In this document: positions 56,656 to 59,182 of the stretch, piece by piece | Numbering within the stretch: position 1 is the first letter of the stretch | Layout of the letters: each line of letters opens with the position of its first letter | DNA from: the human T2T-CHM13v2.0 reference genome, Homo sapiens | Strand: one strand, 5' to 3' | Length of the DNA stretch: 64,000 bases | Assembly (NCBI RefSeq): GCF_009914755.1 | Contig: NC_060940.1 | Notes under the pieces: generated by a model | The model's input: only the letters and a program-made list of their open reading frames with translations | The model's database searches: none | What the model was told of the DNA's origin: nothing | Position numbers and translations under genes: made by a program

Positions 56656-56843
56656 CCACGATGTTACTTTACCTATTAGCAAAAGTAGTAAATAAGGAAT
56701 AAATAACGCAAAGATAATGTTTTATTATTATTATTATTATTGAGACAGGATCTCACTCTGTCACCCAGACTGGAGTGCAGTGCAGATCATGGTTCAACGC
56801 AGCCTCAATTTCCTTGTGTTCAGCCTCCCAAGTAGCTGGGACT

Positions 56844-57812
56844 TCTAGTTCTAGATCCCTGAGGAATCGCCACACTGACTTCCACAATGGTTGAACTAGT
56901 TTACAGTCCCACCAACAGTGTAAAAGTGTTCCTATTTCTCCACATCCTCTCCAGCACCTGTTGTTTCCTGACTTTTTAATGATTGCCATTCTAACTGGTG
57001 TGAGATGATATCTCATAGTGGTTTTGATTTGCATTTCTCTGATGGCCAGTGATGATGAGCATTTTTTCATGTGTTTTTTGGCTGCATAAATGTCTTCTTT
57101 TGAGAAGTGTCTGTTCATGTCCTTCGCCCACTTTTTGATGGGGTTGTTTGTTTTTTTCTTGTAAATTTGTTTGAGTTCATTGTAGATTCTGGATATTAGC
57201 CCTTTGTCAGATGAGTAGGTTGCAAAAATTTTCTCCCATGTTGTAGGTTGCCTGTTCACTCTGATGGTAGACCCAGACATCCCATTACTGGGTATATACC
57301 CAAATGACTATAAATCATGCTGCTATAAAGACACATGCACACGTATGTTTATTGAGGCATTATTCACAATAGCAAAGACTTGGAACCAACCCAAATGTCC
57401 AACAATGATAGACTGGATTAAGAAAATGTGGCACATATACACCATGGAATACTATGCAGCCATAAAAAATGATGAGTTCATGTCCTTTGTAGGGACATGG
57501 ATGAAATTGGAAACCATCATTCTCAGTAAACTATCGCAAGAACAAAAAACCAAACACCGCATATTCTCACTCATAGGTGGGAATTGAACAATGAGATCAC
57601 ATGGACACAGGAAGGGGAATATCACACTCTGGGGACTGTGGTGGGGTGGGGGGAGGGGGGAGGGATAGCATTGGGAGATATACCTAATGCTAGATGACGA
57701 GTTAGTGGGTGCAGCGCACCAGCATGGCACATGTATACATATGTAACTAACCTGCACAATGTGCACATGTACCCTAAAACTTAAAGTATAATAAAAAAAA
57801 ATAATAAAAAAA
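56844..57812 (+). mobile_element. L1PA2-like 3' end with 5' inversion
   Basis: Antisense ORF2 56844-57270 (the 175-aa ORF); sense 57270-57793 with GACGAGTTAGTGGGTGCAGCGCACCAGC (GAG rather than L1HS ACA/ACG); A-rich tail to ~57812. Confidence 0.92.
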
Positions 57813-57832
57813 TAGGGTTTGTAATGTAAGTT

Positions 57833-58196
57833 TGATATGGTTTGGCTCTGTGTCCCCACCTAAATCTCACCTTGAATTGTAATTTCCATAATCCCCACGT
57901 GTCAAGGGCAGGACCAGGTGGAAGGAATTGAATCATGGGGGCAGTTTCCCCCATGCTGTTCTTGTCATAATGAGTGAGTCTCACTAGATCTGATGGTTTT
58001 ATAAGCATCTGGCATTTCCGCTGCTTGCATTCATTCTCTCTCCCACTGCCCTGTGAAGAGGTGTCTTCCACCATGATTGTAAGTTTCCTAAGGCATCCTC
58101 AGCCATGTGGAACTGTGAGTCAATTATACCTCTTTTCTTTATAAATTACCCAGTCTCAGGTATTTCTTCATAGCAGCGTGAGAATGGACTAATATG
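57833..58196 (+). mobile_element. THE1C-like solo LTR (within transduced DNA)
   Basis: TGATATGGTTTGGCTCTGTGTCCCCAC..GAGAATGGACTAATA; 5-bp TSD AAGTT 57828-57832 / 58197-58201. Confidence 0.88.
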
Positions 58197-58441
58197 AAGT
58201 TTTAATTTAGATAAGTCCATCTTCAAATAATACTATACTCCTTCATGTTTTTTGCTAGAACCTCATGCCAGTGTTTTCCCAATTCCTCCTTCCCACCCCT
58301 TGTGCCATTGTTGTTATACACTTTACTCTTACATATGATACAAATACATAAACATTGTCACTATTAGTTATTTAACTTTTATAGCAACTAGAAGAAATTT
58401 TAAAAACTATTTTATTACTGATGTTTTAAAAATTTATTTAT

Positions 58442-58762
58442 GGCCAAGAGCGGTGGCTCACGCCTGTAATCCCAGCAACTTTGGGAGGCCGAGGCGGGCA
58501 GATCACAAGGTCAGGAGATCAAGACCATCCTGGCTAACACGGTGAAACCCCGTCTCTACTAAAAATACAAAAAATTAGCCAGGCGAGGTGGCGGGTGCCT
58601 GTAGTCCCAGCTACGCAGGAGGCTGAGGCAGGAGAAGGCGTGAACACCGCGGGGCGGAGCCTGCAGTGAGCCGAGATCGCGCCACTGCACTACAGCCTGG
58701 GTGAAAGAACGAGACTCCGTCTCAAAAAAAAAAAAATAAAATAAAATAAAAAAATAAAAATT
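58442..58762 (+). mobile_element. AluY (Ye-like), within transduced DNA
   Basis: GGCGAGGTGGCGGG and GGGGCGGAGCCTGCAG diagnostics; tail contains repeated AATAAA. Confidence 0.85.
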
Positions 58763-59182
58763 AAAAAAAAAAAAAAAAGTAGCTGGGACTACAGTCTTGT
58801 GCAGCTATGCCTGCCTAATTCTTGTTTTTTGTTTTTCTGTAGAGACGAGGTCTTGTTATGTTGCCCAGGTTGGTCTCCAACTCCTGGCCTTAAGTGATCC
58901 TCCTGCCTTAGCCTCCTCAAGTGCTGGGGTTACAGGCATGAGCCACCATGCCCCACCCAAAGAAAATATTTAAAAAATCAAAGAGCAAGTGGAACTTGGA
59001 GCAAAGGAGCAACATAGATCTAGTAAGGCCAGAATAGGCTGTGAATACAGTTGCTGGAAAGTTAGAGGAATCTACAGTGTCTGCCTCTGACCCTCATCTT
59101 CCCTTTGCATCTATTCCTGCTGGCTTTGGGGCAGGGCTGTGGGATGGTCACCCTAGGCATTCCATCCTTATTTCTCCTCCAG

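What the first reader, a model, noticed from the sequence alone, without database searches (positions are those of the whole stretch)
56830..58790. One L1 event with a 5' inversion plus a ~950 bp 3' transduction (THE1C LTR + AluY) splitting an AluJ
Seen: an antisense AluJ breaks at 56843 and resumes at 58777, with AAGTAGCTGGGACT duplicated at 56830-56843 and 58777-58790. Between the copies lie inverted L1 ORF2 (56844-57270), the sense L1PA2-type 3' end with its own A-tail (~57812), then non-L1 DNA (a THE1C LTR with intact AAGTT TSD, ~240 bp of AT-rich flank, an AluYe-like copy) and a second pure A-tract just before the TSD. Established: twin priming gives 5' inversions, and read-through of the weak L1 poly(A) signal gives 3' transductions. 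Inference: THE1C is far older than L1PA2 and could not have inserted afterwards, so 57813-58762 was copied from downstream of a source L1 elsewhere. A repeat masker would report five unrelated elements. The copied flank is a barcode for the parent L1 and for sibling insertions, and an LTR promoter was moved by L1 machinery.
Basis: partly seen in the sequence, partly recalled or inferred. Interest (0 to 1): 0.8.

Follow-up and report, generated by a model that had tools for sequence, protein, structure and literature searches.

The report
L1 insertion carrying chr15 flanking DNA
This is one ordinary LINE-1 jump that flipped its own front end and dragged along about 950 bases copied from chromosome 15, where the parent LINE-1 is no longer present.

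Summary

- **Target site:** AAGTAGCTGGGACT occurs exactly twice in the window, at 56830-56843 and 58777-58790. It splits one old antisense Alu.
- **L1 part:** An inverted L1 ORF2 piece (ORF2p residues 1026-1166) is followed by the sense L1 3' end (residues 1171-1275, the 3' UTR, and an internal A-tail ending at 57812). Only about 9-10 nt of L1 are missing between the arms, which is the signature of twin priming.
- **Transduced part:** 57813-58762 is 98.3% identical to chr15:33,601,012-33,601,962 of the same genome. There the THE1-type LTR, the flank and the AluY lie within continuous DNA.
- **3' end of the copy:** It stops 7 nt into the AluY's 3' target-site duplication, 15-25 nt after three ATTAAA signals, and then has 14-16 A. 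It was therefore made from a polyadenylated RNA.
- **Donor site:** chr15 has no L1 at the junction and no young L1 within 10 kb. The breakpoint is TT|AATA, close to the L1 endonuclease motif, so it looks like an empty site of a lost parent L1.
- **Other copies:** No sibling insertions exist. The only other copy (chr16:21.56 Mb, 99.84% identical, flanks included) is a later segmental duplication.

This is a known kind of event and of low interest. Ape orthologues could not be examined.

The parts
56718..56843 (-). Left piece of the split old antisense Alu: the complement of its A-tail followed by its 3' part.
   Evidence: (alignment A1): it aligns to two other Alus and ends at the ...AAGTAGCTGGGACT columns. 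It lacks 17 columns (120-136) that the other Alus have.
56830..56843 (+). 5' copy of the 14-bp target-site duplication AAGTAGCTGGGACT.
   Evidence: 2 of 2 exact matches in the window lie at the two insertion boundaries.
56844..57270 (-). Inverted L1 ORF2 segment, ORF2p residues about 1025/1026 to 1166/1167. Its L1-downstream end abuts the 5' target-site duplication.
   Evidence: residues 1026-1166 of chain 8uw3_A, E 2.5e-95, 141 of 141 aligned residues identical.
57270..57587 (+). Sense L1 ORF2 C-terminus (residues 1171-1275) and its stop codon. Base 57270 could belong to either arm.
   Evidence: residues 1171-1275, E 2.4e-68, 101 of 105 identical; the open frame ends at 57587.
57588..57789 (+). 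L1 3' UTR, with the subfamily-diagnostic trinucleotide GAG at 57699-57701.
   Evidence: One search gives the sequence; the same 26-nt context with NNN has 4859 genomic matches; of the first 100 listed, 78 are GAG, 9 ACG, 8 ACA, 4 AAG and 1 GCG. (passages of PMC7026601): GAG indicates L1PA2 or older.
57790..57812 (+). The L1's own AATAAA signals (57790, 57803) and its short interrupted A-tail, which transcription read through.
57813..58762 (+). Transduced DNA copied from chr15:33,601,014-33,601,962. The match may start 2 A earlier, at 57811.
   Evidence: window 57811-58762 against L003 1499-2449, 98.3% identity, 15 mismatches and 1 gap in 952; 11 differences in 911 positions outside the tail.
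57813..57827 (+). 15 nt of chr15 flank between the L1 tail and the LTR. This would be the start of the parent L1's 3' target-site duplication.
   Evidence: chr15 reads gttgtttt|aaTAGGGTTTGTAATGT; the leftmost register of the breakpoint is TT|AATA.
57833..58196 (+). THE1/MaLR-type solo LTR flanked by the 5-bp duplication AAGTT (57828-57832 and 58197-58201). Subfamily not tested.
   Evidence: 37 of 40 scored matches cover only about query 21-382 (window 57833-58194) at 86-90% identity. The same LTR with the same duplication is present at chr15.
58202..58427 (+). AT-rich chr15 flank, itself derived from an old dispersed repeat.
   Evidence: 3 of 24 matches are full length at 99-100%, and 21 of 24 are partial at 68-84%.
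58428..58762 (+). AluY with its 5' target-site duplication AAAAATTTATTTAT (58428-58441), body (58442-58723), A-rich tail, and only the first 7 nt (AAAAATT, 58756-58762) of its 3' duplication.
   Evidence: chr15 has the full 3' copy AAAAATTTATTTGT, and the chr16 copy stops after AAAAATT.
58763..58776 (+). New untemplated poly(A) tail: 14 A, or 16 counting the AA shared with the target-site duplication.
   Evidence: pure A run of 16 starting at 58763. It is absent from chr15.
58777..58790 (+). 3' copy of the target-site duplication AAGTAGCTGGGACT.
58791..58960 (-). Right piece of the split antisense Alu (its 5' part).
   Evidence: it continues the Alu alignment directly after the 14 shared columns.

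Best explanation
Everything between the two copies of AAGTAGCTGGGACT (56844-58776) came from a single L1 retrotransposition.

1. A full-length, + oriented L1 of the 'GAG' (L1PA2-or-older) class once sat at chr15:33,601,013/14, in a TT|AATA site. This step is inferred.
2. Transcription ran past the L1's weak AATAAA and its genomic A-tail, through 15 nt of flank, a THE1-type LTR, about 230 nt of old repeat and an AluY.
3. The transcript was cleaved 7 nt into the AluY's 3' target-site duplication, 15-25 nt after ATTAAA signals in the Alu tail, and was polyadenylated. The end point and the A-tail are shown; the read-through is inferred.
4. L1 ORF2p nicked an old antisense Alu on chr16 and reverse-transcribed from the new poly(A) back into ORF2, to codon 1171.
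5. The second DNA end primed internally on the same RNA just upstream, at codon 1167, and copied back to codon ~1025. This gave the inverted arm, with about 9-10 nt lost between the arms (twin priming).
6. The result is flanked by a 14-bp target-site duplication.
7. Later, the region with the whole insertion was duplicated in inverted orientation to chr16:21.56 Mb.
8. The parent L1 allele on chr15 was never fixed or was lost, so this assembly carries the empty site.
For: - Boundaries: the 14-bp duplication lies exactly at the insertion boundaries, and these are the only 2 matches in the window. The Alu halves are contiguous and overlap by those 14 bases.
- Two L1 arms: they are adjacent in ORF2p coordinates, 1026-1166 inverted and 1171-1275 sense. 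The inverted arm's downstream end lies against the 5' duplication.
- Donor: window 57811-58762 matches chr15 at 98.3%. The chr15 sequence continues on both sides into unrelated DNA, so chr15 is the donor.
- RNA intermediate: the copy ends within the AluY 3' duplication, after ATTAAA at -25, -20 and -15 nt. It is followed by 14-16 A that chr15 lacks.
- Donor breakpoint: in its leftmost register it is TT|AATA, 1 mismatch from TT|AAAA (a motif recalled, and also quoted in PMC13174262). Only 274 of 19,994 positions (1.4%) in the surrounding 20 kb match that well.
- Layout: L1, then its own signal and A-tail, then foreign DNA, then a second poly(A) is the 3'-transduction layout. Known template-switch chimeras place the other RNA 5' of the L1 (passages of PMC13174262).
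- Age: 11 of 911 positions outside the tail differ (1.2%; 4 are CpG transitions). The event is therefore old, which fits a GAG-class L1.
Against: - No L1 is present at the chr15 breakpoint, and only 68-81% matches to an ancient L1 lie about 8 kb upstream. Within 10 kb on either side there is no young L1. The parent element is therefore inferred, not seen.
- No sibling insertions share the barcode; the 28-nt flank-LTR junction motif (the unique flank start running into the LTR) has 3 of 3 matches at the known places; the only 2 exact matches of the L1 tail-flank junction are the two chr16 copies, and the 11 one-mismatch matches are at the control level of 14; no further strong match.
- The chr16 target CC|AAGT is a poor match to the endonuclease motif, with 4 of 6 mismatches.
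- Ape orthologues were not available, so the pre-insertion state of chr16 rests only on the continuity of the Alu halves. No paralogue with an empty site exists in this genome. In some searches, the only full-length matches of both flanks are the two chr16 places that carry the insertion.
Confidence: 0.85

Rival explanations
1. Template-jump chimera. There was never an L1 at chr15. Instead, a polyadenylated chr15 transcript ending in the AluY tail was used as the first template at the chr16 nick. On reaching its 5' end, the L1 reverse transcriptase jumped to the 3' end (poly(A)) of an L1 RNA and continued into ORF2, and twin priming followed.
For: - chr15 has no L1 at the junction and no young L1 within 10 kb.
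- No siblings were found.
- Template switching by ORF2p during target-primed reverse transcription is an accepted mechanism (passages of PMC13174262).
Against: - Catalogued chimeras have the other RNA 5' of the L1, with the switch going from L1 RNA to the other RNA. Here the order is reversed.
- The chr15 breakpoint falls on a TT|AATA site, a quality of match that only 1.4% of nearby positions reach. Under this rival that would be coincidence.
- The internal L1 tail is short and interrupted (AATAAAAAAAAATAATAAAAAAA). That looks like an aged genomic tail rather than a fresh mRNA tail.
Confidence: 0.07
2. Two separate insertions. A retrocopy of chr15 RNA inserted into the Alu first and made the 14-bp duplication. 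Later, an inverted and truncated L1 landed exactly at its 5' junction.
For: Nested insertions are common in this genome. In this region alone, Alus, an LTR and an L1 lie next to one another.
Against: - The L1 part has no target-site duplication of its own. Its left flank is ...GCTGGGACT and its right flank is TAGGGTTTG.
- It would have had to land at the exact base between the old duplication and the retrocopy.
- A single duplication encloses both parts.
Confidence: 0.02
3. DNA-level copying. The chr15 segment reached chr16 by segmental duplication, gene conversion or repair synthesis, without an RNA intermediate.
For: The region lies in duplicated chr16p12 DNA. The whole insertion has a 99.84% identical inverted paralogue at 21.56 Mb.
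Against: - The copy ends at a polyadenylation-type site followed by 14-16 untemplated A.
- It begins exactly at the end of an L1 A-tail.
- It lies inside one 14-bp target-site duplication.
- chr15 and chr16 share nothing beyond the 952 bases.
Confidence: 0.01

Closest known systems
L1 3' transduction (read-through of the L1 poly(A) signal; Moran 1999, Goodier 2000, Pickeral 2000 and Szak 2003, recalled and seen only as entries in the reference list of PMC4862182; population figures from passages of PMC12350158)
   Same: - The L1 3' end with its own signal and A-tail is followed by foreign single-copy-origin DNA, a second poly(A), and one target-site duplication around all of it.
- The donor locus can be identified from the moved sequence.
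- PMC12350158 reports that 8.8% of 5,311 polymorphic L1 insertions carry a transduction, and that 82.2% of the L1-mediated transductions are at the 3' end.
   Different: - The parent L1 is absent from the donor locus in this assembly.
- The event is old (1.2% divergence) and of the GAG class, not a currently active Ta element.
- The moved DNA consists almost entirely of older repeats (an LTR, an old repeat and an AluY).
Twin-priming 5' inversion of L1 (Ostertag and Kazazian 2001, recalled; the mechanism is described in PMC13174262; examples of 5'-inverted L1 with transduction appear in passages of PMC7026601)
   Same: - There are two arms in opposite orientation, adjacent in L1 coordinates, with a small loss at the junction (codons 1168-1170).
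- The inverted arm's downstream end abuts the 5' duplication.
   Different: Nothing notable. Microhomology at the junctions is at most 1 nt.
Template-switch or ligation chimeras of the U6/L1 type (PMC13174262)
   Same: A single target-primed event joins L1 and non-L1 RNA-derived DNA in the same orientation within one duplication.
   Different: In those chimeras the non-L1 RNA lies 5' of the L1. Here it lies 3' of the L1 and carries the terminal poly(A).

Membership tests
L1 target-primed insertion | A target-site duplication of about 7-20 bp flanking the insert. | tested here: met
   14 bp, exact, at both boundaries, and the only 2 matches in the window.
L1 target-primed insertion | A poly(A) tail directly before the 3' duplication. 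| tested here: met
   14-16 pure A at 58763-58776/78.
L1 target-primed insertion | A target resembling the endonuclease motif TT|AAAA. | tested here: not met
   The chr16 target is CC|AAGT, with 4 of 6 mismatches in the best register. The motif is a preference rather than a requirement (recalled), so this weakens membership but does not exclude it.
Twin-priming 5' inversion | Two L1 arms in opposite orientation that adjoin in L1 coordinates, with a small deletion or duplication between them. | tested here: met
   Inverted arm ORF2p 1026-1166 and sense arm 1171-1275, with about 9-10 nt missing.
Twin-priming 5' inversion | The inverted arm's L1-downstream end lies at the 5' duplication, and one duplication encloses both arms. 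| tested here: met
   Residue 1166/1167 is encoded at 56844-56848, next to the duplication that ends at 56843.
Twin-priming 5' inversion | Microhomology between the primer ends and the L1 RNA at the junctions. | tested here: inconclusive
   At most 1 shared base at each junction, read from the sequence. The L1 bases at the gap are recalled, not taken from a tool.
L1 3' transduction | The L1's own poly(A) signal and A-tail are retained internally, followed by non-L1 DNA and a second poly(A). | tested here: met
   AATAAA at 57790 and 57803, tail to 57812, foreign DNA at 57813-58762, then A14-16.
L1 3' transduction | The moved DNA maps to one other locus where it is continuous with its own flanks, and the breakpoint is compatible with an L1 insertion site. 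| tested here: met
   chr15:33,601,012-33,601,962 at 98.3%. The breakpoint is TT|AATA, and only 1.4% of local positions match the motif that well.
L1 3' transduction | A poly(A) signal lies upstream of the end of the moved DNA at the donor locus. | tested here: met
   ATTAAA at 25, 20 and 15 nt before the end point (L003 positions 2424, 2429, 2434; end at 2449).
L1 3' transduction | A parent full-length L1 is present at the donor locus. This is corroborating rather than defining, because parents can be unfixed alleles. | tested here: not met
   No L1 at the junction and no young L1 within 10 kb on either side in this assembly. Other haplotypes and apes could not be tested.
Template-switch L1 chimera (U6/L1 type) | The non-L1 RNA is fused 5' of a 5'-truncated L1 in sense orientation. 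| tested here: not met
   The non-L1 DNA lies 3' of the L1. The definition is taken from passages of PMC13174262.
L1PA2 subfamily | Subfamily-diagnostic positions. | tested here: inconclusive
   GAG at 57699-57701 excludes Ta (ACA) and pre-Ta (ACG) and indicates 'L1PA2 or older'. No L1 consensus library is available to separate PA2 from PA3 and older.
THE1/MaLR solo LTR | A dispersed unit of about 360 bp with fixed ends and a 5-bp target-site duplication. | tested here: met
   37 of 40 scored genomic matches cover about query 21-382 at 86-90%. AAGTT lies on both sides. Subfamily C cannot be tested here.

The most novel reading that the evidence does not exclude
The junction was not made by read-through from a chr15 L1. 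It was made by a reverse-order template jump: ORF2p first copied a polyadenylated non-L1 chr15 transcript, then jumped onto the poly(A) end of an L1 RNA. That would be a chimera class with the cellular RNA 3' of the L1, which current catalogues (built around RNAs 5' of the L1) do not list and which would be mistaken for a transduction. A milder novel reading is that the parent L1 still exists as a rare allele or in another ape.
Probability: 0.07. Interest if true: 0.45.

Novelty: new member of a known kind. Interest (0 to 1): 0.2.

Why it matters
It matters little beyond bookkeeping.

- It is a clean, fully resolved example of a 5'-inverted L1 with a 950-bp 3' transduction whose donor locus can be named. 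The donor carries the empty site, so the insertion is the only trace in this genome of a parent L1 that was active around the time of the human-chimpanzee split and was then lost.
- It shows that five repeat annotations (two L1 pieces, an LTR, an old repeat and an AluY) are one event.
- It gives a marker that predates the inverted chr16p12 duplication carrying it.
- There is no sign that the moved LTR has any function. No RefSeq functional element is annotated at 56.8-58.8 kb in the table supplied with the finding.

Tried and rejected
- Sibling insertions: none found; the 28-nt flank-LTR junction motif with up to 2 mismatches gave 3 of 3 matches, all at the known places, with 0 in the control; the 18-nt L1 tail-flank junction motif gave 2 exact matches (both chr16 copies) and 11 one-mismatch matches, against 14 in the control; the 240-nt flank gave 3 strong matches and 21 weak ones.
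- A paralogue with the empty chr16 site: none. In some searches, only the two insertion-bearing chr16 places match either flank at full length. All other matches are partial, to repeat portions of the queries.
- A young L1 near the chr15 donor: none within 10 kb on either side. There are only two weak matches (68% and 81%) to an ancient antisense L1 about 8 kb upstream.
- The catalogue papers of reference-genome transductions (Szak 2003, Pickeral 2000) are not held. Whether this exact element was listed there is unknown.
- The held supplements of PMC12350158 (3 files) contain no '15q14', '15q13.3' or '15q13' label. This does not show that no source L1 is known there, because the tables may not be held or may be labelled differently.
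- Literature searches run. None turned up this locus.
- Subfamily assignment of the Alus, the LTR and the L1 beyond the GAG class: no repeat library is available.
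Full report
**Observation**

AAGTAGCTGGGACT lies at 56830-56843 and 58777-58790. These are the only two exact matches in the 64-kb window, against 0.01 expected from 100 shuffles.

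I aligned the DNA left of the first copy and right of the second copy to two other Alus from the window (alignment A1). The two pieces form one antisense Alu. The left piece ends and the right piece begins on the same 14 columns. The pre-insertion site is therefore best read as one Alu with a single copy of the motif. The Alu is old: one search gives 73-77% identity of its right part to the neighbouring Alu. The name AluJ could not be tested.

**The L1 part**

- 56846-57271 on the minus strand translates, without stops, to residues 1026-1166 of human L1 ORF2p (chain 8uw3_A numbering). E is 2.5e-95 and 141 of 141 aligned residues are identical.
- 57270-57584 on the plus strand gives residues 1171-1275, the C-terminus, with 101 of 105 identical. 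The stop codon ends at 57587.
- The inverted arm is therefore the L1 stretch immediately upstream of the sense arm. Only codons 1168-1170 (about 9-10 nt) are missing.
- The inverted arm's downstream end (codon 1166/1167) lies directly against the 5' target-site duplication.

This is the geometry of twin priming (mechanism described in PMC13174262; original paper recalled).

The 3' UTR carries GAG at 57699-57701. A genome-wide pattern search with that trinucleotide left open gave 4859 matches. By my count of the first 100 listed, 78 are GAG, 9 ACG, 8 ACA, 4 AAG and 1 GCG. This is therefore the known diagnostic site. Passages of PMC7026601 say ACA marks Ta, ACG marks pre-Ta, and GAG marks 'L1PA2 or older'.

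The L1's own AATAAA signals lie at 57790 and 57803, and its short interrupted A-tail ends at 57812.

**The non-L1 part and its origin**

I searched the window's own genome with 57813-58441. Of 8406 first-look candidates, 40 were scored.

- Three covered all 629 nt: the window itself, chr16:21,558,627-21,559,255 on the minus strand (100%), and chr15:33,601,014-33,601,642 (99%).
- The other 37 covered only about query 21-382 at 86-90% identity. That stretch is a dispersed unit of about 360 bp with fixed ends. Together with the AAGTT on both sides (57828-57832 and 58197-58201), this supports a THE1/MaLR-type solo LTR.

BLAST of window 56300-59400 against the chr15 locus aligned 57811-58762 to L003 1499-2449 at 98.3%, with 15 mismatches and 1 gap in 952. 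The residue-level alignment shows three things:

- chr15 has the same LTR with the same AAGTT duplication, the same 240-nt flank and the same AluY.
- On the left, chr15 reads ...ctttttagttgttttaa|tagggtttgtaatgt, where chr16 reads ...L1 tail aaaaaaa|tagggtttgtaatgt.
- On the right, the AluY at chr15 is flanked by AAAAATTTATTTAT and AAAAATTTATTTGT. The chr16 copy stops after the first 7 nt of the 3' copy (AAAAATT, 58756-58762) and continues with 14-16 pure A that chr15 lacks.

The end point lies 25, 20 and 15 nt after three ATTAAA hexamers in the Alu tail at chr15.

From this I conclude that chr15 is the donor, that the copy was made from a polyadenylated RNA, and that the LTR and AluY predate the copying.

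**The donor site is empty**

chr15 has no L1 at the breakpoint. Within 10 kb on either side, the only L1 similarity is two weak matches (68% and 81%) to an ancient antisense L1 about 8 kb upstream.

In its leftmost register the breakpoint is TT|AATA, one mismatch from the endonuclease motif TT|AAAA. Only 274 of 19,994 positions (1.4%) in the surrounding 20 kb match that well. Allowing for the three possible registers, the chance of this is about 4%. This favours a real, former L1 insertion site.

I therefore read chr15 as the empty allele of a parent L1 that was never fixed or was later lost.

**Age**

Outside the Alu tail, 11 of 911 positions differ between chr16 and chr15 (1.2%), and 4 of these are CpG transitions. 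At 58650 the window's base is derived, because the chr16 paralogue agrees with chr15.

A divergence of 1.2% is about the genome-wide human-chimpanzee divergence (recalled). The event therefore dates to roughly that split, with a wide Poisson error. Whether it is human-specific cannot be said.

**Other copies**

The chr16:21.56 Mb copy is not a sibling insertion. It matches the window over 3088 nt, including both Alu halves and the unique flanks, at 99.84% in inverted orientation. Both flanks of the insertion exist exactly twice in the genome at full length. It is a later segmental duplication of the already filled site.

The region lies near OTOAP1. Passages of PMC9184528 describe the OTOA/OTOAP1 duplicated locus, which has an extra copy in CHM13. 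The stretch studied here has two copies.

No true siblings were found:

- the 28-nt flank-LTR junction motif matched only the three known places.
- the 18-nt L1 tail-flank junction motif matched exactly only in the two chr16 copies. The 11 one-mismatch matches were no more than the control count of 14.
- the 240-nt flank gave no further strong match.

**Rivals**

- The main rival is a template jump from a chr15 transcript onto the poly(A) end of an L1 RNA. It explains the missing parent. However, it requires the reverse of the order seen in catalogued chimeras, a coincidental endonuclease-like breakpoint, and a fresh mRNA tail that now looks short and interrupted. I give it 0.07.
- Two sequential insertions are unlikely, because the L1 part has no duplication of its own and a single duplication encloses everything.
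- DNA-level copying is contradicted by the untemplated poly(A) and by homology that stops exactly at 57811 and 58762.

**Points against my reading**

- The parent L1 is inferred, not seen.
- The chr16 target CC|AAGT is a poor endonuclease site, with 4 of 6 mismatches.
- No outgroup genomes could be examined.

**Comparison with what is known, and verdict**

Both 3' transduction and twin priming are textbook L1 outcomes. In 1,019 long-read human genomes, 8.8% of 5,311 polymorphic L1 insertions carried a transduction, and 82.2% of the L1-mediated transductions were at the 3' end (passages of PMC12350158). Examples of 5'-inverted L1 with transductions are described in PMC7026601.

The early catalogues of reference-genome transductions (Szak 2003, Pickeral 2000) are not held, so I cannot say whether this element was already listed.

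It is a new, well-resolved member of a known kind and of low general interest.

Noticed in passing
window 56313-59941 and L002 (G000:C16:21557127-21560755, minus strand): The whole region, including the insertion, has an inverted paralogue about 1.38 Mb away on chr16. It is 99.84% identical over 3088 nt, and within the insertion it differs at only 4 positions: 57379, 57427, an A indel at 57805, and 58650. This is a recent segmental duplication near OTOAP1.
   Followed up: partly
window 58202-58441: The 'unique' AT-rich flank has 21 partial matches at 68-84% identity on many chromosomes. It is therefore a fragment of an old dispersed repeat whose family was not identified.
   Followed up: partly
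L003 1163-1490 (chr15, 20 nt upstream of the donor breakpoint): A young-looking Alu with a (CAAA)n tail and an AAAAACTT target-site duplication sits directly upstream of the presumed parent-L1 site. It is not part of the copied segment.
   Followed up: no
window 56718-56843: The left half of the split Alu lacks 17 alignment columns (A1 columns 120-136) that are present in the two Alus it was compared with.
   Followed up: no
PDB chain 9d2f_J (cilia- and flagella-associated protein 61), residues 286-333: A deposited CFAP61 chain matches L1 ORF2p residues encoded at about 56935-57082 with E 1.6e-12. This suggests an L1-derived stretch in that protein sequence.
   Followed up: no
L015 1582-2067 (chr15, about 8 kb upstream of the donor site): An ancient antisense L1 ORF2 remnant, 68-81% identical to the window's L1. 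The donor locus may lie within or next to this old element.
   Followed up: no
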